Assembly: GCA_964563315.1 (NCBI GenBank)
Contig: CAZLWG010000006.1
Location: 5,198 to 69,197 of the forward strand
Direction: 5' to 3'
Source: an uncultured Anaerolinea sp.
Lineage (GTDB): Bacteria; Chloroflexota; Anaerolineae; Anaerolineales; Villigracilaceae
DNA: 64,000 nt
The translations under genes were made by a program, and so were the position numbers. Shown here one piece after another: positions 31,030 through 63,729 of the stretch (positions are counted from its first letter, which is position 1; each line of letters opens with the position of its first letter). Below the pieces are notes generated by a model that was not told the DNA's origin, ran no database searches, and saw nothing but the letters and a program-made list of their open reading frames with translations.

Positions 31030-32850
31030 TTATTGCCACAGATCTTTTGCCGCATCCACCAAGCCTAATTCAATCAGTTTCTCGCGCGTAGGTTTGCCGG
31101 TTTCCATATCCCAGCCGCGGACTTTGTAGTAGGCATCGAGCATGCTCTGCAGGTCCGGTGCGAATCCCTCTGAGCCGCCGTCAGGGAAAGGCACAAGCAG
31201 GGCTTTGGGCAGCGTATCATTCTCAGCAGTCAACCCAAGGCGGTTGTTGATCGCGCGTTTGAGGTTCCAACTCCGCTCCCCTGCCTTCATCATGTCGTTA
31301 ACCGTCCATTCTAATCCGCAGGCGGCATTAATCAAATCCACCTGTTCTTGCGGATCCACGTTCGCAAAAATGCACATCACCATCGCATTGAACATCGTAC
31401 GCCAGTCCTGATGCTTGGCGACATTCCCCGCTTTTTCTGCCTGGTCGTGGCGTGAGAAGAATTCGATCCCTAATTTCTCGTGAGTGTGCCCCCAATCCAC
31501 AAAAAAATAATCCGATTGGTTATGACACGCCCCGCGCGGGCTGGTAGCATATGAAAGCGCCATGCCCGAAACCCCGCGTGGATCGTGGTACGCCACTTCG
31601 AGTCCGTTCACCTGCACAGCTTCCTTCTCCATACCGAAATGAGAGGCAAAACGCCGCGAACCCAATGCCAGCACATTACCAATACCCTCGCGCGCTCCGA
31701 TCAGGCGTACAAGTCCTTCGATGACATCCACATCGCCCCAATTCAACTCGATGCCGCCCGTATCCTCTTTTGTAATGACCCCTTTCTCATACAAATGAAA
31801 TGCCAGCCCAATGGTATTGCTTGCACTGATGGTGTCCATGCCGTAACGGTCGCACAACTCGCCCAGATCCACGATGGCTTCGAGATTCGAATTCATCAGG
31901 TTTGCGCCAAACCCCACCATCGTTTCATACTCGGGGCCTTTTCGCTTCATCTTGTCGTCTGGAAGTTTCACCACCCGCCCGCATGCGATTACGCAACCCT
32001 GGCATGCGCTTCGCCCTGTCAAGATCGTTTCCGCCATTTTTGCACCGGAAATTTCATCCACCTGCTCAAACGATCCGCGCGAATAATATTTCGCTGGCAT
32101 CGCGCCAAGGTATTCCGAATAATTCGCCGCGCCGCCTGTGCCAACTTCCCGAAGCACCTTGGTCTCGTTATCTTCTTTCAACCTGCGGTTCGCCTCGGAC
32201 CGCAGCGCTTTGTACCGTGGCAGATTAAAAACAGGGATTTCATTCACCCCATGCACTGCGATCGCTTTAAGATTCTTGGATCCCATCACAGCCCCTAGTC
32301 CGGTTCGCCCCGCCATGCGTCCATGATCGCACATGATCGAAGCGAACATGACCTGTTTTTCTCCGGCAGGCCCGATGACGCACACCCTTGCAGTCTTCTC
32401 GCCGATTTCCTCTTTGACTTTTTCCTGCGCTGTATAAGTGTTCATCCCCCACAAATGCGCCGCACTTCGGACCTCGAACCTGCTCCCGTTTAACCAGAGG
32501 AAAACCGGCTCTGCCGCCTTTCCCATGATCCATAAGCCGTCATACCCCGCCTTGCGAAGTTCGGGTCCCCAAAAGCCTCCAATGTTGGATTCTGCCCATA
32601 GACCGGTGGCAGGCCCCTTTCCGCAAATGACGAAGCGTCCGGTGGTCGGGCCTGAGGTGCCGGTCATGGGTCCCATCAGAAAAAGAAGAGGGGCATGTTC
32701 AGAGAAGGCATCCAGTTCCGGGGTCAACGCATCATATAAAAGCCGTGCCGCAAGTGATGCGCCGCCTAGAAAATCGCGTTCCCATTCTTTGGGCATGGAA
32801 AATTGCTCCGTTTTGCCGGATGTAAGGTTAATTTTGAGGATGGGCTGCAT
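31030..32850 (-). CDS. aor: aldehyde:ferredoxin oxidoreductase (tungstopterin WOR/AOR family)
   Basis: FLGGASLA, AGRTGLGAVMGSKNLKAIAV, CQGCVIAC, GPEYET, DPRG, RGACH; GGAGG RBS. Confidence 0.92.
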   Translation of the reverse strand: MQPILKINLTSGKTEQFSMPKEWERDFLGGASLAARLLYDALTPELDAFSEHAPLLFLMGPMTGTSGPTTGRFVICGKGPATGLWAESNIGGFWGPELRKAGYDGLWIMGKAAEPVFLWLNGSRFEVRSAAHLWGMNTYTAQEKVKEEIGEKTARVCVIGPAGEKQVMFASIMCDHGRMAGRTGLGAVMGSKNLKAIAVHGVNEIPVFNLPRYKALRSEANRRLKEDNETKVLREVGTGGAANYSEYLGAMPAKYYSRGSFEQVDEISGAKMAETILTGRSACQGCVIACGRVVKLPDDKMKRKGPEYETMVGFGANLMNSNLEAIVDLGELCDRYGMDTISASNTIGLAFHLYEKGVITKEDTGGIELNWGDVDVIEGLVRLIGAREGIGNVLALGSRRFASHFGMEKEAVQVNGLEVAYHDPRGVSGMALSYATSPRGACHNQSDYFFVDWGHTHEKLGIEFFSRHDQAEKAGNVAKHQDWRTMFNAMVMCIFANVDPQEQVDLINAACGLEWTVNDMMKAGERSWNLKRAINNRLGLTAENDTLPKALLVPFPDGGSEGFAPDLQSMLDAYYKVRGWDMETGKPTREKLIELGLVDAAKDLWQ

Positions 32851-43038: not shown

Positions 43039-45837
43039 ATGACAACCATCGTATCGCTCGACATCGAATCCACCGGTCTGGATGAAAACCGCGAAGCCAT
43101 CATTGAGATTGCCGCCGTCAAATTCAACGGGCGGCGCGTGGAAGATGAATTCAACACCCTTATCAATCCCGGAAAACACATACCCGATTTCATCACAGGG
43201 CTGACAGGCATCGATGATGCGATGGTGCGTCAGGCGCCCCGCCTGCGCGACATCGCCCACGAACTTACTGCTTTCGTAGGCGATGCACCCATCCTTGGGC
43301 ATAACGTCAAATTCGATATCGGATTCCTGCGCAAGGCGGGACTATTCGAATTCCAACAAACCCTCGACACGTACGAACTTGCATCCGTCTTGCTCCCCGC
43401 TGCCAGCCGTTACAACCTCGGCGCGCTCGGGCAGCAACTGGGCATACCGCTTCCCGCTACACACCGCGCACTCGACGACGCCCGCGTCACGCATGCCTGC
43501 TATGTGCGTCTGCTCGACTTGGCTCGCGAACTCCCGCTCGAAACCCTGCAGGAGATCGTCGAGCTTGGCAATTATGTGGATTGGGATGCAGGGTGGGCAT
43601 TCGAACAAGCCTTGCATGCCCGCGTAAAGGAAGGAATCAAACCCAAGCGGACATCCCGCGCTTCCACCCACAAGCCTGCACTTGACCCAACGGCCCAAAG
43701 AGACTCCCCGCCGATACAACGCACCGAAGAGCCGCTTCCGCTTGACCCCGAAGAAGTCGCTTCCATCCTGGAGTACGGCGGACCTTTCTCTGAATATTTT
43801 GAATCCTATGAGCACCGCACCGAACAGGTGGAAATGCTCAAGGCAGTTACAGATGCCTTATCCACAGGCGGTCATTTAATGGTGGAAGCGGGAACAGGGG
43901 TGGGAAAATCCTTCGCCTATCTTGTGCCGGCCGCGTTGTTTGCCTACAACAACAATACGCGCGTGGTGGTTTCCACAAATACCATCAACCTGCAGGATCA
44001 ACTCATCAAAAAAGATATTCCCGACCTGCAAGCCGCTCTCCAATTGAGAGTGCGCGCCGCCGTGATGAAGGGACGCGTCAACTACCTCTGTCCGCGCAAG
44101 GTTGGTTACATGCGTTCGCATGGGCCCGCCAACGCCAACGAGATGCGCGTTCTGGCAAAGATCATCGTTTGGCAGTTGGAGAACACCAGCGGCGACCGGA
44201 ACGAACTAAATCTCACAGGACCCATCGAACGCGAGGTCTGGTCAAGGCTGTCAGCGGAGGATGATGCCTGCACAACAGAAACCTGCCTCGGTCGAATGGG
44301 AGGCGTTTGTCCGTTCCATCGAGCAAAACAGGCGGCGCAAAATTCCCATCTGCTGATCGTAAACCATGCCCTGCTTCTTTCCGATGTTTCGACCGGCAGC
44401 AAAGTTCTACCGGAATACGATTACGTCATCATCGACGAAGCGCATCACATGGAGTCGGCAGTGACAAATGCGCTTTCATTCCGCATGACTCAAAACGACC
44501 TGGATCGCATGTTGAAGGAGTTGGGCGGATCATCGGCGGGATTGCTCGGCAGAATGCTGACAGACACGCACGACGCGCTTCGCCCTTCGGACTTCGGGTT
44601 GCTCCAACAAAAATCAAAGCGAGCCACCGACCAGGCATTTCGGCTCGATCAACTCTCGAAGGAATTTTTCAGTTATCTGGGCGAATTCATCGCTGTGCAG
44701 CGCGAGGGGCAGCAACAGAATAACTATGCCTGGCAAATGCGCATCACCCCTGCCGCGCGGACACTGCAGGGTTGGGACGACCTCGAAATGTTATGGGGGC
44801 AGGTCAGTGAAACAATGACCCATCTGCTGAAAACGCTCGACGAGATTTACAAGTCTCTCGGCGAACTGTATAACGATGGTCATGACAACGTGGAAGATGT
44901 AATGGGCAGCATTGGCACACTCGTCCGCCGTATGACGGAGGCAGAGACCGCCGCCTCCGGGATGATGCATAAACCATCGAATGAGTTGATCTATTGGATC
45001 GAAGTCAATCCGCGCGGGGAGAAATTATCTCTAAACGCCGCGCCGTTGCGGGTGGGTCCGTTGGTACAAAAGCATCTTTGGTACGAAAAAGCCAGCGTCA
45101 TCATGGCGTCCGCCACGATGACCACGCACGGCGACTTCGGCTACGCCCGCCGCACGCTCGCCGCCGATGAAGTGGACGTACTTTCGCTCGGTTCGCCTTT
45201 TGATTACGAATCCAGCACTTTGCTTTACGTCGCCAACGACATGCCCGAACCGAACAATTTCAATTATCAACAGGCTCTCGACCGCGCCATCATCTCCACC
45301 GCCAAAGCCACCGGCGGACGGATGCTTGTGCTGTTCACGTCCTATTCCGCTTTAAAAAAGACCGCGCAAGCCATCACAGGTCCTCTGGCGCGCGAGGATA
45401 TTTTCGTCTATGAACAGGGTGAAGGGGCATCGCCGAATGCCCTGCTGGAGTCGTTCAAAACAACAGAAAGAGCAGTTCTGCTCGGCACACGTTCATTCTG
45501 GGAAGGGGTGGACGTGCCGGGCAATGCGCTCTCGGTGGTCGTCATTACCAAACTGCCTTTTGACGTGCCCTCCGACCCGATCATCTCGGCTCGTTCCGAA
45601 CTGTACGAAGATTCATTCAACGAATATTATCTCCCTGAAGCGATTCTGAAATTCCGACAAGGTTTTGGGCGCCTGATTCGCACTGCGTCCGACAGGGGCG
45701 TGGTTGCCATCCTGGACCGCCGTGTGCTGACCAAGCAATACGGCAGGCTCTTCCTCGAATCCCTGCCGCCGTGTACTGCGCGCCAAGGCCCTGTATCGGG
45801 GTTGGCAAAGGTGGCTGGCGATTGGCTGGGAGTGTAG
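43039..45837 (+). CDS. dinG: DEDDh 3'-5' exonuclease fused to a DinG-family Fe-S helicase
   Basis: LDIESTG, GHNVKFD, HRALDDA; EAGTGVGKS, IIDEAHH, Fe-S cysteines (YLCP, DAC, ETC, VCP), SFWEGVDVPG, QGFGRLIR. Confidence 0.92.
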   Translation: MTTIVSLDIESTGLDENREAIIEIAAVKFNGRRVEDEFNTLINPGKHIPDFITGLTGIDDAMVRQAPRLRDIAHELTAFVGDAPILGHNVKFDIGFLRKAGLFEFQQTLDTYELASVLLPAASRYNLGALGQQLGIPLPATHRALDDARVTHACYVRLLDLARELPLETLQEIVELGNYVDWDAGWAFEQALHARVKEGIKPKRTSRASTHKPALDPTAQRDSPPIQRTEEPLPLDPEEVASILEYGGPFSEYFESYEHRTEQVEMLKAVTDALSTGGHLMVEAGTGVGKSFAYLVPAALFAYNNNTRVVVSTNTINLQDQLIKKDIPDLQAALQLRVRAAVMKGRVNYLCPRKVGYMRSHGPANANEMRVLAKIIVWQLENTSGDRNELNLTGPIEREVWSRLSAEDDACTTETCLGRMGGVCPFHRAKQAAQNSHLLIVNHALLLSDVSTGSKVLPEYDYVIIDEAHHMESAVTNALSFRMTQNDLDRMLKELGGSSAGLLGRMLTDTHDALRPSDFGLLQQKSKRATDQAFRLDQLSKEFFSYLGEFIAVQREGQQQNNYAWQMRITPAARTLQGWDDLEMLWGQVSETMTHLLKTLDEIYKSLGELYNDGHDNVEDVMGSIGTLVRRMTEAETAASGMMHKPSNELIYWIEVNPRGEKLSLNAAPLRVGPLVQKHLWYEKASVIMASATMTTHGDFGYARRTLAADEVDVLSLGSPFDYESSTLLYVANDMPEPNNFNYQQALDRAIISTAKATGGRMLVLFTSYSALKKTAQAITGPLAREDIFVYEQGEGASPNALLESFKTTERAVLLGTRSFWEGVDVPGNALSVVVITKLPFDVPSDPIISARSELYEDSFNEYYLPEAILKFRQGFGRLIRTASDRGVVAILDRRVLTKQYGRLFLESLPPCTARQGPVSGLAKVAGDWLGV

Positions 45838-54059: not shown

Positions 54060-54128
54060 ATGAGTTATAATCCTCCCCCGACATCGGTAAAAATGGAGGT
54101 GAACACAAAAATCATATACGGGAAAGAC

Positions 54129-54350
54129 AGCGCATGGACTTTGACTTGCAACGAACAGCCAAAGTTGACGAGGATGAGGGTTCTCCATTGCAAAATGGAG
54201 CCAATGTTCCCATAACTGCGGAACAGAAAATCGAAGGATCAGCGGAAGCCCTCCGGGTACGCCATGACCCGTCATTCTTTCCCTCCAGAAGCAACCCCAA
54301 CCAGAAACACCCGTGAGCGATCACAGGAGCAAAAGGGCTGGGGAATGGCA
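54129..54350 (+). ncRNA. glmS ribozyme (GlcN6P-activated self-cleaving riboswitch), expanded variant
   Basis: A|GCGCATGGACT at 54129, P1 ACTTTG/CAAAGT, GACGAGG at 54167, GAGGG/CCCTC pairing, ATCGAAG...AGCGGA, distal GCGA (GNRA) tetraloop hairpin; directly upstream of glmS. The 3' boundary is approximate. Confidence 0.9.
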
Positions 54351-54440
54351 ACACAAAGAGGACGGTGCCCGGGCATTCAGGCAAGGCCTATCAGCCTGGG
54401 TTTTGACGTCCAAATCTATTAACTTGGAGGATCCCCTACC

Positions 54441-56282
54441 ATGTGTGGAATCGTCGGTTATGTCGGCGCGCGAGACGCGACGCCGATCATACTCAATGGT
54501 TTGAAAAGGCTCGAATACCGCGGATATGATTCGGCGGGTGTTGCCGTCATTAACAGCAACCAGATCGAGGTCCGGAGAGATGCGGGCAAGTTGTCGCAAT
54601 TGGTTGACCTGGTCGGCAAAAGCCCTCTTAAAGGCGCCCCTGGAATCGGTCATACCCGCTGGGCAACGCACGGCGCGCCGTCGGCAAGGAATGCACATCC
54701 GCATGTCGGGAATTCGGGCAAGGTCGTTGTGGTTCACAACGGTATCGTCGAAAATTTTCTTGAACTGAAGGACGAATTGACCAGCGAAGGCGTGACGTTC
54801 AACTCGGAGACCGACACTGAAACCATCGTCCATCTTGCCGAGCATCTCAAAGCCGGGGGAAACAATCTTGAAGATGCCGCGCGAAAAACATTCAATCAGA
54901 TCGAAGGCGCAAACGTGGTGGTGATGATGTCTCCCGATGAGCCGGATAAGATCGTGACCGCCAGGATCGGGAATGCCGGCGGCGTGGTGATCGGGCTGGG
55001 TGAAAACGAGAATTTCATCGCGTCGGATATTCCTGCCATTCTCGAACATACGCGCAAGGTGATATTCCTTGAGTCGCGGCAGATGGCAGTGGTGACACGT
55101 GACAGTGTGCGCGTGCAGACGCTCGATGGAATTGAAATAGATCCCGAAATCCATACCATCGCATGGGATGCTGTTTCTGCAGAAAAAGGCGAGTACCGCC
55201 ATTTTATGCAGAAAGAAATTCACGAACAGGTGCGCGCATTGACCGACACTCTGGCCGGACGTATCGATTTTCAAGAGGGGCGCATCCGCCTGCCGGAACT
55301 CAAACTCACGCCCGAAATCGCTAAACGCATCCAGCGCATGTACATCACAGCCTGCGGCACGGCGGCCTATGCGGGCATGGTCGGCAAATATCTCATTGAA
55401 AAGATCGCCCGAATTCCAGTCGAAGTAGTGATCGGTTCGGAGTTTCGTTACAGCGACCCGATCATCGATGCGAACACAGTCGTGCTTGCCATCTCTCAAT
55501 CCGGCGAAACAGCAGACACTCTCGCTGCCATGGAGGAAGGCAAGCGAAAAGGCGGCATTGTGTGGAGCATTGTCAACGCCATTGGGTCGCAAGCCATGCG
55601 CGTTGCCGACGGCTTCATCTCCATGCAAACCGGACCCGAGGTGGGAGTGGCATCCACGAAAGCATTCACCGCCCCGCTCGTGAACCAATACATGCTCGCC
55701 ATTCTACTGGCAGATTTGCGCGGAACGATGGATGAAGAAACACGCAAATCGCTTGTCTCTGATCTGCGCCTTGTACCAGACCTGGCGGGCCGGGTATTGG
55801 ACACCGAGCCGAATATCGAAGAAGTTGCTTACGTTCTGAAAGACATCCGAAACTGTCTGTATTTGGGGCGCGGCATAAACATGCCTATCGCCTATGAGGG
55901 CGCGTTAAAACTCAAGGAAATCTCATACATCCACGCAGAAGGCTACCCTGCCGGCGAAATGAAGCACGGGCCCATTGCGCTGATCGACGAAGAAATGCCC
56001 GTGCTTTGTATTGCCCCCAAAGACCCCTGGCACGAGAAAATGATCTCACAGATCCAGCAGGCAAAGGCGCGGGGCGGAATTGTCGTTGCTGTGGCAACCG
56101 AGGGTGATGAACTGGTCGGAGGCATGGCAGACCATGTCCTGTGGATTCCTGAAGCACCGTGGATGCTCTCGCCGGTCGTGACCGTCCTTCCCCTGCAATT
56201 GCTTGCCTATCACATCGCCGCGATCCGCGGATTGGATGTAGACCAACCGCGCAACCTGGCAAAAAGTGTGACAGTGGAATAA
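54441..56282 (+). CDS. glmS: glutamine--fructose-6-phosphate aminotransferase (isomerizing)
   Basis: MCGIVG, LEYRGYDSAG, GHTRWATHG, HNGIVEN, SQSGETADT, LKLKEISYIHAEG, DQPRNLAKSVTVE. Confidence 0.99.
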   Translation: MCGIVGYVGARDATPIILNGLKRLEYRGYDSAGVAVINSNQIEVRRDAGKLSQLVDLVGKSPLKGAPGIGHTRWATHGAPSARNAHPHVGNSGKVVVVHNGIVENFLELKDELTSEGVTFNSETDTETIVHLAEHLKAGGNNLEDAARKTFNQIEGANVVVMMSPDEPDKIVTARIGNAGGVVIGLGENENFIASDIPAILEHTRKVIFLESRQMAVVTRDSVRVQTLDGIEIDPEIHTIAWDAVSAEKGEYRHFMQKEIHEQVRALTDTLAGRIDFQEGRIRLPELKLTPEIAKRIQRMYITACGTAAYAGMVGKYLIEKIARIPVEVVIGSEFRYSDPIIDANTVVLAISQSGETADTLAAMEEGKRKGGIVWSIVNAIGSQAMRVADGFISMQTGPEVGVASTKAFTAPLVNQYMLAILLADLRGTMDEETRKSLVSDLRLVPDLAGRVLDTEPNIEEVAYVLKDIRNCLYLGRGINMPIAYEGALKLKEISYIHAEGYPAGEMKHGPIALIDEEMPVLCIAPKDPWHEKMISQIQQAKARGGIVVAVATEGDELVGGMADHVLWIPEAPWMLSPVVTVLPLQLLAYHIAAIRGLDVDQPRNLAKSVTVE

Positions 56283-57671: not shown

Positions 57672-58275
57672 TGTAATTGCATGGAGGGAGATCTTTCGGG
57701 GGCGTGTTTGGCATGCTTTGGCAGCGATTGTCGTCAAGGATTCTCCACAGGAAATCGTCCTTGCTGTGTTGCCTGGTGCAGAGCGTTTAACAGAAGAACA
57801 TTATCCACAAGGCAAAAACAATGGAAGACGCCGCTGGGATTTCAGGAGTGAAGACTGGTGTCTCGAAAATTTTCCATGGCATACAACTCGAGCACTGCAG
57901 ATACTCGAGCCCGCCAAGTTTTTCTCGACAATTTATTTTTGGGATAATACCAGCGGCGAATTTCTATGCTATTACATTAATTTTCAAACCCCGTTTAAGA
58001 AAAAAGGGCAAATACTTGATACGCTGGATCTGGATCTCGATTTGATCATCCGCCCCGATTATTCGTTTGAATGGAAAGATTTGGATGATTATCAAAAAGC
58101 CATCGAAGTTGGGATGATCTTGCCTGAATGGATTCATAAGGTCGAAACTACAAAAGAAGAGATATTTGGTAGGCTTGAAAGACGGGAATACCCACTCGAT
58201 GGGTCCTGGATAAATTGGAAACCGGATTTAAAGTGGCTCGCTTCAAAGCTTCCTGAGGATTGGAACAAAATTTAG
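57655..58275 (+). CDS. DUF402 domain protein
   Basis: Start MWKYGD; CYYINFQTP, DTLDLDLDLII, WKDLDDY. Confidence 0.75.
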   Translation: MWKYGDVIAWREIFRGRVWHALAAIVVKDSPQEIVLAVLPGAERLTEEHYPQGKNNGRRRWDFRSEDWCLENFPWHTTRALQILEPAKFFSTIYFWDNTSGEFLCYYINFQTPFKKKGQILDTLDLDLDLIIRPDYSFEWKDLDDYQKAIEVGMILPEWIHKVETTKEEIFGRLERREYPLDGSWINWKPDLKWLASKLPEDWNKI

Positions 58276-58286
58276 AGGTACAAGAC

Positions 58287-59060
58287 ATGATACTCCCGCA
58301 AAAAACCATCGAATATGAAAGATTTGAATTCAAAAAATGGGAGCATTTCAACTCCGAGACCATTGTCGAAATGCCCGTCTCTCTAACCGTCAACGGTCAG
58401 GTGTGGATCTCGTTCATGTGTACGCCTGTGGATCTGGAGGCGCTGGCTGTGGGCTTCCTTTACAATGAAGAGATCATCGAAAGCATGGACGACGTCGCGG
58501 ATGTGCGCGTGTGCGAACACGGCGACAATGTGGACGTTTGGCTAAATCAGGCGGTGGAACAACCGGCAAATTGGCGCAGGACTTCCGGCTGTACCGGCGG
58601 CGTGACAGCTGTTGACCTCCTGGCGAAACCAAATGTCTCGTTTGCAGAGAGCAGGCTTGAGGTCGAACCGGAGGCGATTTGCGATCTCGTGGAGCGCCTG
58701 TTCCAATCCCAATTGCTTTACCGCGAAACGGGCGGCGTCCATACATCCGCTTTGAGCGATGGAGAGAAAGTCATCCTTGTGGCGGAAGACATCGGCCGGC
58801 ATAACACGCTGGACAAGATCGCAGGCTTGGTCCTGATGAAAAACATCCAGCCGAAGAACCGCATCCTCATTACAACCGGACGCATCAGTTCTGAGATGCT
58901 GCAAAAAGCCGCGCGTATTCAAGCGCCAATTCTGATCTCGCGCACCTCCCCATCATCGCTTTCGATCGAGATGGCGGAGCGATATGGAATTACTCTGATC
59001 GGTTATGCGCGAAAACATCGCTTCAACGTGTACTCAAATTCCTGGCGCGTGGGTTTGTGA
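58287..59060 (+). CDS. fdhD: formate dehydrogenase accessory sulfurtransferase FdhD
   Basis: EMPVSLTVNG, MCTPVDLEALAVGFL, TSGCTGG, TGGVHTSAL, EDIGRHNTLDK, TGRISSEM. Confidence 0.95.
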   Translation: MILPQKTIEYERFEFKKWEHFNSETIVEMPVSLTVNGQVWISFMCTPVDLEALAVGFLYNEEIIESMDDVADVRVCEHGDNVDVWLNQAVEQPANWRRTSGCTGGVTAVDLLAKPNVSFAESRLEVEPEAICDLVERLFQSQLLYRETGGVHTSALSDGEKVILVAEDIGRHNTLDKIAGLVLMKNIQPKNRILITTGRISSEMLQKAARIQAPILISRTSPSSLSIEMAERYGITLIGYARKHRFNVYSNSWRVGL

Positions 59061-59120: not shown

Positions 59121-59209
59121 TTACAAAGGGACAAATGTCGCACTGAGGTATGAGAAATGAAACTTACCTAAATTGACACAACAAGGAATAATTGCAATGG
59201 AGCAAAAGC

Positions 59210-60952
59210 ATGACCCACAAACTAATTGTTCATAAACCGATTTCGCCCGAAATACAGGAATTCGCGCGCAAGCATGGGAATGACCGCGAAGCTGCGCTGG
59301 AGGTGTTGAAGGAGATTCAAACGCATCACTCCACGCTGACAACGGGCGCTGTCACCGAGGCCGCCCGCGCGCTGAACCTTCCTCCCCGCCACCTGTACGG
59401 CATGGCAACATTTTATTCCATGTTGTCCTTTGAAGAACGGAAGAAAGTATTGCGGGTATGCGACGGCCCGGTGTGCTGGCTTAAGAGGGTAGATGACAAA
59501 TTACCTGCAAGCAACGACCAGCTGATCCAGGAGTGGCAGAATAAAATTGGCGAAGAATTCAGCGTGGAACGAACTTCGTGTTTGGGATTGTGCGACCGAG
59601 CTCCTGCGGCACTTGTTGAAGATCAGCAAGCCGGTCCCATTGACACTGGCGACGCAGCAAAAGTCTGTGATGGTTGGCGGAGCACACCAACCGATTACAG
59701 CAAACCGCGTAAAGGCGAAATTCGTGTGATGATGTCACTGGCAGGGAAGATCGATCCCGATTCGATAGCCGATGCTTTATCAAATCACATCTACGATGGA
59801 TTGAAGAAAGCACTTCAGCTCCCCGCCGAAACCGTTCTATCAGAAGTGGAATCCTCCGGATTGCAGGGGCGCGGCGGCGCGGGCTTTCCTGTCGGGCGAA
59901 AGTGGCGTTTTGTTGCCAGCGAAAAGCGGACACCGCGCTACATCATTTGCAACGCGGACGAATCCGAGCCGCTGATCTTCAAAGACCGCGTGCTGATCGA
60001 CACGAATCCGCATCAAGTGATCGAAGGAATGACGATCGCAGGATACGCCTGCGGCGCATCCGAGGCGTGGATCTATATCCGGGGTGAATACGAACATCAA
60101 GCCCGGCGGCTGGAGAATGCCATCGAACAGGCAAAGTCCAAAAATCTTTTAGGCGAAAATATTTTGGGAAGCGGTTTCTCGTTCAATATTCATGTCCATC
60201 GCGGCGCGGGCGCCTACATTTGCGGCGAAGAGACGGCGCTGATCGAATCGCTTGAAGGCAAGCGCGGCGAACCGAGGTTGCGTCCGCCCTACCCGCCCCA
60301 GTTCGGTTTTCGTGGACAACCAACAGCGGTAAACAACGTCGAATCATTTTGCGCTGTTCCGCACATCATAAAAAACGGTGCAGAGTGGTGGAAATCTCTT
60401 TCGGAATATAAAACACCCGGCACGAAAATGTACATGGTGTTGGGGCATGTAAAGAAACCCGGTTTATTTGAAGCCCCATTCGGGTTGACTCTCCGCGAGA
60501 TCATGAAAGAATTCGGAGGCGGAATGCCCAAGGGCTCAAAATTCAAATTCGCCTTGTGCGGCGGCGCAGCGGGGACAATTGTCAGCGAGGCCATGCTCGA
60601 TGTGCCCATTGACTTTACCTCGGCGCAGCAAGGGATATCGCTGGGCGCCGGCGCATTTTTAATTTGCGATCAAAGTGTTTCGATAGCGGCTATGTTGCGC
60701 GAATTGGTGCATTTCTTCGCGGCGGAATCCTGCGGAAAATGCACGCCCTGCCGCGTGGGGACCTGGCGCGCATTGGAGATTCTCGATCGGATGGCTTCAG
60801 GTAAGGGTTGCAAAGGGGACGTAAAAGAATTGGAATCTCTTGCCAATTTGATGCAAGACTCATCGTTTTGCGGGCTGGGGCAGAGCGCTTCAATACCGAT
60901 CAAATCGGCATTGACTCATTTTAGTTCGGAATTCGAAAAGGCAGAGAGTTAA
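59210..60952 (+). CDS. fused NuoE/NuoF-like NAD(H)-binding diaphorase subunit of formate dehydrogenase
   Basis: NuoE-type VCDGPVC...CLGLC; NuoF-type GRGGAGFP, NADESEP, GAYICGEETAL, SCGKCTPCR, FCGLG; GGAG RBS before the ATG at 59210. Confidence 0.9.
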   Translation: MTHKLIVHKPISPEIQEFARKHGNDREAALEVLKEIQTHHSTLTTGAVTEAARALNLPPRHLYGMATFYSMLSFEERKKVLRVCDGPVCWLKRVDDKLPASNDQLIQEWQNKIGEEFSVERTSCLGLCDRAPAALVEDQQAGPIDTGDAAKVCDGWRSTPTDYSKPRKGEIRVMMSLAGKIDPDSIADALSNHIYDGLKKALQLPAETVLSEVESSGLQGRGGAGFPVGRKWRFVASEKRTPRYIICNADESEPLIFKDRVLIDTNPHQVIEGMTIAGYACGASEAWIYIRGEYEHQARRLENAIEQAKSKNLLGENILGSGFSFNIHVHRGAGAYICGEETALIESLEGKRGEPRLRPPYPPQFGFRGQPTAVNNVESFCAVPHIIKNGAEWWKSLSEYKTPGTKMYMVLGHVKKPGLFEAPFGLTLREIMKEFGGGMPKGSKFKFALCGGAAGTIVSEAMLDVPIDFTSAQQGISLGAGAFLICDQSVSIAAMLRELVHFFAAESCGKCTPCRVGTWRALEILDRMASGKGCKGDVKELESLANLMQDSSFCGLGQSASIPIKSALTHFSSEFEKAES

Positions 60953-60960
60953 GGTGAAAC

Positions 60961-63729
60961 ATGATCAACCTGAAAATTAATGGTCAAGAAATACAAGCCG
61001 AAACCGGAAAAACTGTGTTACAGGTGGCAAGAGAACATGGCATCCGCATTCCTACTCTTTGCTACCATAAGGATTTGAACCCAACAGGCAATTGCCGTAT
61101 GTGCTTGGTCGAAGTGAAAGGTGGAAGGTTTTTACAGGCGGCATGTGTTACTCCGGTTTGGGAAGGCATGGAAATAGAGACCGGCACCGAAAAGGTGATG
61201 AACGATCGTAAGTTGACACTTGAACTCATGCTCGCCAATCACCCGCAGGACTGTCTGACCTGCGATGTAGCGGGCGAATGCGAATTGCAGGATTTGGCAT
61301 ACGAATACAAGGTCGAGGTTCCAACATGGGGAGCGAAAGGTGCGCGTTACCAAGTGGACAGCGACCCGAATCCCTTTATCCGCGTGGATATGAACAAATG
61401 CATTCTTTGCCGCAGGTGTGAATCGGCATGCGCAGAAATTCAAGTCCGCGATGTGTGGGGGGTGGCAAATCGTGGGTTCAGTGAAGTCATGGCGGCGGGA
61501 GCAGGCGTCCCGATGTTGGAAGCGCGGTGCGAGTCATGCGGTCAATGTGTGGCATATTGTCCGACAGGCGCTTTATCCAACAAGATGAATTACGGCGTCG
61601 CGCGCGCGCATCAAGTAAGGAAAGTGACAACAACCTGTTCATATTGCGGCGTGGGCTGTCAATTCGACCTGCTTGTAAAAGATAATAAGGTGATCGGTGT
61701 GGGGTCGAACCCGAACGCGCCCGTGAATGGAATGGCATTGTGCGTGAAGGGACGTTATGGATACGATTACATACATCATCCAGACAGACTGGTAAAACCG
61801 AAAGTTAGAAAGTATTTATTGGAAGGACAGGAAAAGACAAGGGAAGGCGGCGGATGGGAATGGGTGGATGTCGAATGGGATACAGCCCTTAATCTCGTCG
61901 CCGATAAATTTGCAGAAACACGCGCAAATTTTGGCGCGGACACACTGGGCTTCCTCACATCGGCGAAGTGCTTGAACGAAGAAAATTATTTGATGAACAA
62001 ACTGGCGCGGCAGGTCATTGGAACGAATAACATTGACCACTGCGCCCGTCTCTGACACTCCAGCACGGTGGCCGGTCTGGCTGCCTCCTTCGGCTCGGGC
62101 GCGATGTCCAATTCGATGGACGATGTCTCAAAGCACGCGCAGGCGTTTTTCATCATTGGCTCCAATACCACTGAACAGCATCCCGTCTTCGGGACGATGA
62201 TCCGACGAGCGGTGAAATTCCGCGGCGCGAAATTGATCGTTGCAGACCCGCGCAAAATCGACATCACCGAGTTTGCCACCCTGCATTTGCGTCAGCGCCC
62301 CGGCACGGATATTGCCCTCCTCAACGGTTTGATGCACATCATCCTTGAAAAGGGCTGGCACGATCAATCCTTCATTGACGAGCGCACGGAAGGCTTCGAT
62401 GAATTCAAGCAATCTGTGATGCAATATCCACCGGACAAAGCTGCTGAAATTACAAATGTACCTGTCGAGAAGTTATACGAAGCAGCGGAGATTCTCGCCT
62501 CATCCAAGCCGACGGCTGTTCTGTGGGCAATGGGCATTACCCAACACATAGTCGGAGTCCGCAATGTGATGTCGCTTGCCAACCTACAAATGCTCCTGGG
62601 TAATATGGGAAAACCAGGCGGCGGAGTTAATCCCTTGCGAGGACAGAATAATGTGCAGGGCGCATGTGACATGGGCGGTCTGCCGAACGTCTATCCGGCG
62701 TATCAACCGGTGACGAGTGAAGAAGCGCATGAGAAATTTACAAAAGCATGGGGCGCTACGAGCAGCACAAATGTCGGTCTCACCATCACAGAGATGATTC
62801 CCGGGATTCCCGAAGGCAAGATCAAATCGCTTTATATTCTCGGCGAAGACCCGGTGATGTCGGACCCGGACACAAATCACATCCGGCATTGCCTTGAAGA
62901 ATTGGATTTCCTTGTATTGCAGGAGATCTTCCCATCCGAGACGGCGGCGTATGCGGATATATTACTTCCCGGGGCGTCCTTTGCGGAAAAGACAGGCACG
63001 TTCACGAACACAGAACGACGCGTGCAGATGGTCCATCAAGCCATTGAGCCGATCGGCGAGTCAAAGCCGGATTGGTGGATCACGTCTGAAATTGCAAAAA
63101 GGTTGATGGGCAGGATCAGTGATCGGGTCTGGGGTGAGGCGCCGCATGGAAAATGGGAATACAAAGACGCAGCGGAGATCATGTCCGAGATCAATGCAGT
63201 TGCTCCATCCTACGGCGGAATCACTCATCCAAGATTGGAAGCAGGAGAGCGCCTGCAGTGGCCATGCCTGAATGCGGAGCATCCGGGGACGCCGATCTTG
63301 CATGGCAAACAATTTACGCGCGGTAAAGGCAAGTTCATGCCGATTGACCACGTGCCGCCGGCAGAACGTCCCGATGACGACTACCCGATGGTGATGAGCA
63401 CGGGACGAGTGCTGTATCACTGGCATGGCGGGCAGATGACACGGCGTTCTGAGGGAATCATGCAGGTGTACGGCGAGGCGTTGGTGGAAGTGAACCCTGA
63501 TGATGCAAACAAACTTGGACTGAATGGAAAGAATATCGTGCGGATCACGTCGAGACGCGGCTCAATCAAAGCCCAAGCCTGGGTGACGGAACGCGTGCCG
63601 CCTGGCATGGTGTATGCGAATTTTCACTTCCCGGAAGCGTCTGCGAACGAGCTAACCCATGCTTCGCTCGACCCCGTTGCGAAAATTCCTGAATACAAAA
63701 TTACGGCCGTAAAGGTTGAATTGGCGTAA
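60961..63729 (+). CDS. fdhF: selenocysteine-containing formate dehydrogenase alpha subunit with N-terminal [2Fe-2S]/[4Fe-4S] domains (922 aa)
   Basis: Track ORFs 60961-62055 and 62068-63729 are in the same frame, joined by a single TGA at 62053 in DHCARL-U-HSSTVAGL, the FDH active-site motif; SECIS follows; NVQGACDMG and STGRVLYHWH present. Confidence 0.93.
62056..62085 (+). promoter_or_regulatory. bacterial SECIS element
   Basis: Stem GGTGGCC/GGCTGCC with loop GGTCT starting 18 nt after the UGA, the same spacing and GGUCU core as recalled for E. coli fdhF. Confidence 0.85.

What the first reader, a model, noticed from the sequence alone, without database searches (positions are those of the whole stretch)
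62041..62085. Selenocysteine recoding: in-frame UGA plus an E. coli-like SECIS joins two apparent ORFs
Seen: TGC GCC CGT CTC TGA CAC (C-A-R-L-U-H) with the frame continuing to 63729, and a 7-bp stem with a GGUCU loop 18 nt downstream. Known: this is the Mo/W-ligand position of FDH. Automated annotation would call it split or a pseudogene. It predicts selA, selB, selC and selD elsewhere in the genome.
Basis: partly seen in the sequence, partly recalled or inferred. Interest (0 to 1): 0.65.

Follow-up and report, generated by a model that had tools for sequence, protein, structure and literature searches.

The report
Selenocysteine codon in formate dehydrogenase gene
The two apparent ORFs are one ordinary 922-residue formate dehydrogenase gene of an uncultured Anaerolineae (Chloroflexota) bacterium, whose in-frame UGA is read as selenocysteine with the help of a conserved hairpin just downstream; this is a well-supported textbook case, not a new mechanism.

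Summary
Observation confirmed. TGA 62053-62055 joins ORFs 60961-62055 and 62068-63729 in one frame. The joined 922-aa protein matches formate dehydrogenase alpha (TIGR01591, 828 bits) in one stretch across the TGA. The TGA aligns with Sec140 of E. coli FdhH, with the catalytic His and Arg in place. A 7-bp hairpin (62067-62085) has its GGUCU loop 18 nt after the UGA, as in E. coli fdhF.

Among 81 orthologues (80 related Anaerolineae genomes plus the window):
- 73 have TGA and 8 have Cys codons.
- Every TGA gene keeps an intact downstream frame of 545-587 codons.
- dN/dS downstream of the UGA is about 0.05-0.13.
- The hairpin shows compensatory changes at four pairs.
- Synonymous variation in the TGA genes is lowest exactly at codons 361-378.
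- The hairpin decays in the Cys genes.

TGA is a normal stop elsewhere in the window. It is present in four DNA metagenome runs and in an RNA contig.

None of these genes lies in the window or in the relatives' flanks.

Selenocysteine formate dehydrogenases in Anaerolineales are already published (PMC4959059). Low interest.

The parts
58260..59060 (+). fdhD, formate dehydrogenase accessory sulfurtransferase; first gene of the fdhD-fdhB-fdhA string
   Evidence: TIGR00129 at 188.6 bits against a cut-off of 140.9. PF02634 on the called gene in L001.
59192..60952 (+). fdhB, the NAD(H)/FMN diaphorase subunit: a NuoE-like 2Fe-2S domain fused to a NuoF-like domain. The start may be 59210, giving the 580-aa gene call.
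   Evidence: NuoF family at 503 bits over residues 190-583 and NuoE-like over 18-157. Residues 19-582 align with the beta subunit of tungsten-containing formate dehydrogenase 7e5z_B.
60961..63729 (+). fdhA, formate dehydrogenase alpha subunit. One 922-codon gene with a NuoG-like Fe-S N-terminus and a Mo/W-bisPGD catalytic domain, containing selenocysteine 365.
   Evidence: TIGR01591 at 827.7 bits (cut-off 666.25), in one stretch over residues 224-919. Solved formate dehydrogenases match at E about 1e-219 over residues 2-919. 38% identity to E. coli FdhH.
62053..62055 (+). In-frame UGA, codon 365, read as selenocysteine (the Mo/W ligand)
   Evidence: Aligns with UGA140 of E. coli fdhF. TGA in 73 of 81 orthologues and Cys codons in 8. 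No variant at this codon in 4 DNA runs.
62067..62085 (+). SECIS apical hairpin: arms 62067-62073 and 62079-62085, loop GGUCU 62074-62078
   Evidence: Compensatory changes at 4 of 7 pairs, 95.6% of cells paired, 0 of 500 shuffles as high. Loop invariant in 74 of 74 TGA sequences. Rfam SECIS_3 at E = 4.5e-4, below the gathering score. Same loop and spacing as E. coli fdhF.
62038..62094 (+). Codons 360-378: zone of suppressed synonymous variation around the UGA and hairpin, seen in the Sec-type orthologues only
   Evidence: The lowest 12-codon windows of third-position entropy in the whole gene fall here: 0.42-0.51 bits against a gene mean of 1.24. The Cys-type orthologues show 0.5-1.9 bits at the same codons.

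Best explanation
fdhA (60961-63729) is a single gene for the catalytic subunit of a cytoplasmic, two-subunit NAD(P)-linked Mo/W formate dehydrogenase (FdhAB type). It is co-transcribed with fdhD and fdhB.

Codon 365 (UGA, 62053-62055) is recoded as selenocysteine, the residue that ligates Mo or W.

Inferred mechanism, from the established bacterial pathway:
- The hairpin at 62067-62085 presents its GGUCU loop 18 nt past the UGA.
- SelB carrying GTP and Sec-tRNA(Sec) binds that loop as the ribosome approaches, and delivers Sec to the A-site UGA in competition with release factor 2.
- Translation then continues for 557 more codons.

Shown here:
- The single reading frame and the position of the UGA.
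- Purifying selection on the part downstream of the UGA.
- Covariation and Sec-specific conservation of the hairpin.
- Use of TGA as an ordinary stop elsewhere in the window.

Inferred, not shown: SelB binding, Sec insertion itself, and the presence of selA, selB, selC and selD in this genome.
For: Position and active site:
- One continuous TIGR01591 match spans the TGA.
- U365, H366 and R560 align with U140, H141 and R333 of E. coli FdhH. The CxxCxxxC...C 4Fe-4S motif is also conserved.

Orthologues:
- 73 of 81 Anaerolineae orthologues carry TGA.
- All 74 TGA-bearing genes, including one paralogue, have an open downstream frame of 545-587 codons.
- dN/dS between the window and relatives downstream of the UGA has a median of 0.078 and a maximum of 0.13, the same as upstream.
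- On the FdhA tree, Sec is the common state, with at least 5 changes to Cys. The window sits in a 17-member clade that is all Sec.

Hairpin:
- Pair 21-33 occurs as G-C, A-U, C-G and G-U. Pairs 22-32 and 24-30 each switch once to A-U. 0 of 500 shuffles reach the observed covariation.
- The synonymous-site minimum of the whole gene lies at codons 361-378, in Sec genes only.
- Hairpin free energy has a median of -12.5 kcal/mol in TGA genes. In Cys genes it is -7.9 to +0.6, except for one apparently recent convert at -10.6.
- The loop sequence and its 18-nt spacing are identical to E. coli fdhF. This fits the general description of a 6-8 bp stem with a conserved loop G about 20 nt after the UGA (PMC4605307).

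Code and sequence quality:
- TGA ends 12 of 45 long ORFs in the window, so the code is not reassigned.
- TGA is present without variants in 4 DNA metagenome runs.
- A metatranscriptome contig reads the TGA without any difference (61981-62069), and RNA contigs cover both sides of it.

Literature: Sec-containing formate dehydrogenases and SelB genes have been reported in Anaerolineales single-cell genomes (PMC4959059).
Against:
- No selA, selB, selD or tRNA-Sec was found in the 64-kb window or in about 1.5 Mb of relatives' flanks.
- The hairpin alone is not thermodynamically unusual (z = +1.64).
- The Rfam SECIS_3 score is below its gathering threshold.
- dS is saturated (above 1), so the dN/dS values are rough.
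- There is no protein-level evidence.
Confidence: 0.93

Rival explanations
1. Pseudogene: a Cys codon (TGC or TGT) mutated to TGA, leaving a truncated 364-residue protein and a decaying 3' remnant.
For: TGC to TGA is a single-base change. Gene callers split the gene here. The Sec machinery of this genome is unverified.
Against: The same TGA occurs in 73 of 81 orthologues. All have intact downstream frames. dN/dS downstream is about 0.05-0.13. A covarying hairpin is conserved only in the TGA genes.
Confidence: 0.03
2. Two separate genes: an Fe-S N-terminal protein ending at the TGA, and a catalytic protein re-initiated at GTG 62068.
For: A GTG lies 12 nt after the TGA, and the ORF list shows a 553-aa ORF from it.
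Against: The break falls inside the catalytic domain. It removes the metal ligand and the conserved His366 from the second product. The four intervening codons HSST are conserved as protein. GTG 62068 is the Val370 codon inside the hairpin arm. All solved homologues are single chains across this point.
Confidence: 0.01
3. Sequencing or assembly error, or a genome-wide reassignment of TGA (for example to Trp or Gly).
For: The window comes from a metagenome-assembled genome, and Logan contigs break exactly at 62052.
Against: The contig breaks come from k-mers shared among formate dehydrogenase genes of co-resident organisms: depth is 100-200 there against 14-25 in the flanks. Contigs with zero differences span the TGA in all 4 runs and in RNA. 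TGA terminates 12 of 45 long ORFs in the window.
Confidence: 0.01

Closest known systems
E. coli formate dehydrogenase H (fdhF, Sec140; PDB 1AA6/1FDO) and its fdhF SECIS
   Same: UGA at the aligned active-site position, followed by the catalytic His, with the catalytic Arg conserved. 38% identity over the catalytic domain. The GGUCU apical loop begins 18 nt after the UGA, encoded by the same V-A-G-L codons.
   Different: The window's protein has an additional NuoG-like Fe-S N-terminus of about 220 residues and a partner FdhB. The hairpin is a regular 7-bp stem with a U-G or U-A pair where E. coli has a bulged U. The lower helix is not supported by covariation.
Two-subunit NAD(P)-linked W/Mo formate dehydrogenases: Methylobacterium extorquens tungsten FoDH1 (PDB 7E5Z/7VW6), and the Sec-containing NADP-dependent FdhAB of Moorella thermoacetica
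   Same: FdhA matches 7vw6_A and 7e5z_A at E about 1e-219 over residues 4-919. FdhB matches 7e5z_B over residues 19-582, with the same fused NuoE+NuoF layout. PMC5736913 describes this FdhAB type in Chloroflexi and relates it to the Sec-containing Moorella enzyme.
   Different: The solved alpha-subunit chains were not checked at this position here; that the M. extorquens and R. capsulatus enzymes carry Cys rather than Sec is my own knowledge. Whether the metal here is W or Mo, and whether the cofactor is NAD or NADP, cannot be told from sequence. That the Moorella fdhA SECIS is a perfect hairpin with a GGUCU loop is my recollection and was not checked here.
Sec-containing formate dehydrogenases of Anaerolineales single-cell genomes (An-B22, An-B16, An-K11)
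   Same: Same order, the same NAD-FdhAB type, and annotated with selenocysteine in the active site. SelB genes were found in An-B04, An-B22 and Anaerolinea thermophila (PMC4959059; PMC5736913).
   Different: Those sequences were not compared directly here. The window's nearest genomes in the collection are 82-83% identical Anaerolineales / Candidatus Villigracilaceae MAGs.
Rfam SECIS_3 (RF01989)
   Same: Full-length match to the model over 62050-62108, E = 4.5e-4 for the stretch searched. The apical stem and loop agree.
   Different: The score of 26.6 bits is far below the gathering score of 63. The model's lower helix is mostly mismatched in the window.

Membership tests
Formate dehydrogenase alpha subunit, Mo/W-bisPGD (TIGR01591 Fdh-alpha) | Whole-protein score above the curated cut-off, as one collinear match | tested here: met
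   827.7 bits against a cut-off of 666.25; residues 224-919 match profile positions 1-672
Formate dehydrogenase alpha subunit, Mo/W-bisPGD (TIGR01591 Fdh-alpha) | Sec or Cys metal ligand followed by the catalytic His, plus the catalytic Arg (U140, H141, R333 in E. coli FdhH) | tested here: met
   U365, H366 and R560 align with them
Formate dehydrogenase alpha subunit, Mo/W-bisPGD (TIGR01591 Fdh-alpha) | N-terminal CxxCxxxC...C 4Fe-4S motif of the catalytic domain | tested here: met
   TCSYCGVGC...LCVKG aligns with VCPYCASGC...LCLKG of FdhH
Bacterial SECIS element | Hairpin of 6-8 bp directly 3' of the UGA, with a conserved loop G about 20 nt after it (PMC4605307) | tested here: met
   7-bp stem at 62067-62085. 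The loop Gs are the 19th and 20th nt after the UGA.
Bacterial SECIS element | Structure maintained by evolution, and only where the codon is UGA | tested here: met
   4 pairs with compensatory change and 0 of 500 shuffles as high. Synonymous-site minimum in Sec genes only. Hairpin energy decays in Cys genes.
Bacterial SECIS element | E. coli-type details: bulged U in the upper stem and a lower helix that includes the UGA | tested here: not met
   No bulge: the U is paired as U-G or U-A. The lower helix shows no covariation, and one pair is broken in 23 of 61 sequences.
Bacterial SECIS element | Reaches the gathering score of an Rfam SECIS family | tested here: not met
   SECIS_3 at 26.6 bits against 63; nothing at the gathering threshold
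Bacterial SECIS element | Binds SelB and directs Sec insertion | not testable with these tools
   Needs a binding or reporter assay
Sec-decoding trait (selA, selB, selC, selD) | The genome encodes SelA, SelB, SelD and tRNA-Sec | not testable with these tools
These genes are absent from the window and from 80 relatives' loci, which says only that they are not linked to fdh.
Two-subunit NAD(P)-linked FdhAB | Alpha subunit with a NuoG-like Fe-S N-terminus, a beta subunit that is a NuoE+NuoF fusion, and adjacent genes | tested here: met
   fdhB ends at 60952, 8 nt before the fdhA start at 60961.

The most novel reading that the evidence does not exclude
The Anaerolineae fdhA recoding signal may be a lineage-specific SECIS variant that is more than the apical hairpin.
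- In Sec-type genes only, synonymous constraint begins about 5 codons upstream of the UGA (codons 360-364) and runs to about 13 codons downstream.
- There is no bulged U and no supported lower helix.
- About 45 nt are nearly invariant across genomes whose synonymous sites are otherwise saturated.

This could reflect an extended SelB or ribosome contact, or an upstream-context requirement, that differs from the E. coli model.
Probability: 0.12. Interest if true: 0.3.

Novelty: already known. Interest (0 to 1): 0.12.

Why it matters
The main value is for annotation. The gene should be called as one 922-residue selenoprotein, not as two ORFs or a pseudogene. The organism, an activated-sludge Anaerolineae bacterium, should be scored as a selenium user with a soluble NAD(P)-linked formate dehydrogenase.

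The comparative set also illustrates two known points cleanly:
- A SECIS constrains synonymous sites only while the codon is UGA.
- Sec-to-Cys replacement is recurrent (at least 5 times here).

None of this changes current understanding.

Tried and rejected

**Substitutes that gave nothing**
- ARAGORN on the window and on 83 loci found no tRNA-Sec.
- Motif scans found no sel genes, and tblastn with E. coli SelA, SelB and SelD (taken from NC_000913.3) found no hit at E <= 1e-3 against the window plus 80 relatives' loci.
- NCBIfam on 10 large window ORFs found no sel gene.
- A scan of the window for other UGA-joined ORF pairs found only fdhA to be plausible.
- Earlier notes of this scan hold nothing on this genome's Sec genes.

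**The genome-contig scan** did not return the window's own genome; the best match was 83% identical.

**Single-sequence folding** does not support the hairpin.

**A longer SECIS with a lower helix** was tested and is not supported. RNAalifold on wider windows gave alternative pairings without evidence.

**Contig breaks at 62052.** I considered whether they signalled a Sec/Cys polymorphism. They do not. They reflect k-mers shared among different organisms' FDH genes.

**Searching the big protein databases with E. coli Sel proteins.** I did not do this. The hits carry no genome identity, so they could not answer whether this genome has the genes.

Full report
**1. The observation**

- TGC GCC CGT CTC TGA CAC lies at 62041-62058, with the TGA at 62053-62055.
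- Under table 11 the region splits into ORF 60961-62055 (364 aa) and ORF 62068-63729 (553 aa), which share a frame.
- Reading TGA as U gives a single 922-residue product that ends at TAA 63727-63729.
- The hairpin is GGUGGCC (62067-62073), loop GGUCU (62074-62078), GGCUGCC (62079-62085). It has seven pairs, two of them G-U.
- The stem starts 11 nt after the UGA and the loop 18 nt after it.
- On its own the hairpin is not remarkable. The 58 nt from the UGA fold no better than shuffled sequence (z = +1.64). The case has to rest on comparison.

**2. What the gene is**

The joined protein matches NCBIfam TIGR01591 (formate dehydrogenase subunit alpha) at 827.7 bits against a cut-off of 666.25. The match is one stretch, residues 224-919, running straight across the TGA.

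The N-terminal 220 residues are NuoG/HoxU-like Fe-S domains. The best solved relatives are NAD-linked formate dehydrogenase alpha subunits, all at E about 1e-216 to 1e-219 over nearly the whole length:
- 9wxb_B
- the tungsten enzyme 7vw6/7e5z
- 6tg9

I took E. coli fdhF from NC_000913.3 and aligned it with the window's protein.
- The window's U365 falls on U140 of FdhH, H366 on H141 and R560 on R333.
- The CxxCxxxC...C cluster motif is conserved.

Upstream lie fdhD (58260-59060) and fdhB (59192-60952).
- fdhD matches TIGR00129 above its cut-off.
- fdhB is a NuoE-like domain fused to a NuoF-like domain. It aligns over residues 19-582 with the beta subunit of the tungsten formate dehydrogenase 7e5z_B.
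- fdhB ends 8 nt before the fdhA start.

This is therefore a soluble two-subunit FdhAB enzyme with its maturation factor.

**3. Is the TGA real?**

A look-up of the 364-aa fragment found three Logan contigs that all end exactly at 62052. That looked like a possible polymorphism.

Laying the contigs of four DNA metagenome runs on the site shows otherwise.
- Summed depth rises from 14-25 to 100-200 over 62023-62081. These roughly 60 nt are shared by the formate dehydrogenase genes of several co-resident organisms, which tangles the assembly graph.
- Short contigs with zero differences span the TGA in all four runs.
- No variant is listed at 62053-62055.
- A loose end from another organism also reads ...TTG TGA CAC....

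Metatranscriptome contigs of a strain at least 97% identical (the likeness threshold used) cover most of fdhD, fdhB and fdhA.
- One contig of 89 nt (61981-62069) spans the TGA with no differences.
- One contig of 1362 nt spans 61856-63217.

TGA terminates 12 of 45 long ORFs in the window, so there is no genome-wide reassignment.

**4. Relatives**

Nearly all are titled as Anaerolineae or other Chloroflexota MAGs, and they are 66-83% identical to the query. The window's own genome was not among them. The nearest are Anaerolineales and Candidatus Villigracilaceae MAGs.

- At the aligned codon, 73 of 81 orthologues (the window included) have TGA and 8 have TGC or TGT. Two loci hold a second paralogue, one with TGA and one with TGT.
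- All 74 TGA-bearing genes keep an open frame of 545-587 codons after the TGA.
- Between the window and its relatives, dN/dS downstream of the UGA has a median of 0.078 and a maximum of 0.13. Upstream the median is 0.061. dS is above 1, so synonymous sites are saturated.
- The downstream 557 codons are thus maintained as protein, which excludes a pseudogene or a truncated product as the normal state.
- On a FastTree of FdhA, the Cys state needs at least 5 changes and is scattered among Sec genes. The window sits in a 17-member clade that is all Sec.

**5. The SECIS**

In the 74 TGA sequences the loop GGUCU is invariant. The 63-nt block around the UGA is 93% identical on average, even though synonymous sites elsewhere are saturated.

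Counting the 7-bp helix on this alignment gave the following:

| Measure | Result |
|---|---|
| Cells paired | 95.6% |
| Pairs with changes on both sides | 4 |
| Pair 21-33 states | G-C 46, A-U 10, C-G 3, G-U 2 |
| Pairs 22-32 and 24-30 | each switch once to A-U |
| Pair 20-34 | alternates U-G and U-A |
| Shuffles reaching the observed values | 0 of 500 |
| Cells paired after sliding the 3' partners by 1-3 columns | 16-61% |

These compensatory changes sit at synonymous third positions of the Val and Ala codons.

The window itself has the G-U intermediate at pair 21-33.

Third-position entropy over conserved degenerate codons averages 1.24 bits across the gene. The lowest 12-codon windows of the whole gene are codons 361-373 to 366-379, at 0.42-0.51 bits. 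In the eight Cys orthologues the same codons show 0.5-1.9 bits.

The free energy of the fixed 7-bp hairpin has a median of -12.5 kcal/mol in TGA genes. In Cys genes it is -7.9 to +0.6. The exception is L039 at -10.6, which still has the hairpin and looks like a recent convert.

Compared with E. coli fdhF, the loop sequence and its 18-nt distance from the UGA are identical. The E. coli bulged U is absent, however. A candidate lower helix has no covariation, and one of its pairs is broken in 23 of 61 sequences.

Rfam SECIS_3 matches 62050-62108 full length at E = 4.5e-4, but at 26.6 bits against a gathering score of 63. Mismatches lie in its lower helix. Nothing reached a gathering score.

The element fits the general definition quoted in PMC4605307: a 6-8 bp stem with a conserved loop G about 20 nt after the UGA.

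**6. Sec machinery**

What I could check:
- No tRNA-Sec in the window or in any locus.
- No SelA, SelB or SelD by motif scan, or by tblastn with the E. coli proteins, in the window or in about 1.5 Mb of relatives' flanks.
- No further plausible UGA-joined gene in the window.

This shows only that the sel genes are not linked to fdh in this lineage.

The literature reports Sec-annotated formate dehydrogenases in Anaerolineales single-cell genomes. It also reports SelB genes in An-B04, An-B22 and Anaerolinea thermophila (PMC4959059). The FdhAB type is discussed in PMC5736913.

The presence of the machinery in this genome is therefore a strong inference from the conserved, selected and structured state of the gene. 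It is not a result.

**7. Mechanism**

Shown:
- One frame.
- The UGA at the ligand position.
- Selection on the downstream part.
- A hairpin that covaries and is constrained only when the codon is UGA.

Inferred from the established bacterial pathway:
- SelB carrying GTP and Sec-tRNA(Sec) binds the GGUCU loop through its C-terminal winged-helix domains.
- It decodes the UGA as Sec.
- The Sec ligates Mo or W in an enzyme that exchanges electrons with NAD(P) through FdhB.

The metal and the nicotinamide cofactor cannot be told from sequence.

**8. Comparison and novelty**

This is the same kind of thing as E. coli fdhF and its SECIS, and as the Sec-containing FdhAB of Moorella thermoacetica. It is an orthologue of Anaerolineales genes already described as Sec-containing.

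Earlier notes of this scan on look-alike stretches in other Anaerolineae genomes reached the same reading. They are not independent support.

The only mildly unusual points are two:
- The synonymous constraint extends about five codons upstream of the UGA.
- The hairpin is simple, with no bulge.

**9. Verdict**

The genomic Sec machinery remains untested. The case is already known and of low interest, apart from correcting the annotation.

Noticed in passing
window 54118-54352 (+), upstream of ORF 54441-56282: glmS ribozyme (RF00234) at 43.5 bits against a gathering score of 37. It sits directly 5' of a 613-aa ORF that is presumably glmS. This is the only Rfam match at gathering threshold in the window.
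   Followed up: no
window 62023-62081: Logan contigs of four metagenome runs break at 62052. The SECIS-bearing stretch of about 60 nt is shared by the formate dehydrogenase genes of several co-resident organisms (summed depth 100-200 against 14-25). A conserved SECIS can therefore fragment de Bruijn assemblies exactly at the Sec codon.
   Followed up: yes
loci L039, L041, L070, L073, L075, L076, L079, L083: At least 5 independent Sec-to-Cys replacements on the FdhA tree. L039 (TGC) still carries a nearly intact hairpin, so its switch looks recent. The others have lost the hairpin.
   Followed up: partly
window 62038-62052 (codons 360-364): In Sec-type orthologues, synonymous variation is also suppressed in the five codons upstream of the UGA (0.25-1.24 bits against 0.95-1.9 in Cys-type genes). 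No pairing partner for this stretch was established.
   Followed up: partly
L061 about 3671 and L041 about 3638: Two relatives carry a second formate-dehydrogenase-like paralogue about 7.4 kb upstream of the orthologue. One has TGA with the same GGUCU hairpin and the other has TGT.
   Followed up: no
window 60561-60649 (inside fdhB): One metatranscriptome contig (run X14) skips 87 nt, which is in frame (29 codons), inside fdhB. It is seen in one run only and may be a strain variant or an assembly artefact.
   Followed up: no
window 31030-32850 (-): A 606-aa ORF whose first 234 residues match aldehyde ferredoxin oxidoreductase, a tungsten enzyme family, at 190 bits, far below the equivalog cut-off.
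   Followed up: no
window 43039-45837 (+): A 932-aa DnaQ-exonuclease/DinG-helicase fusion (PRK08074, 713 bits), the Gram-positive type of DinG.
   Followed up: no
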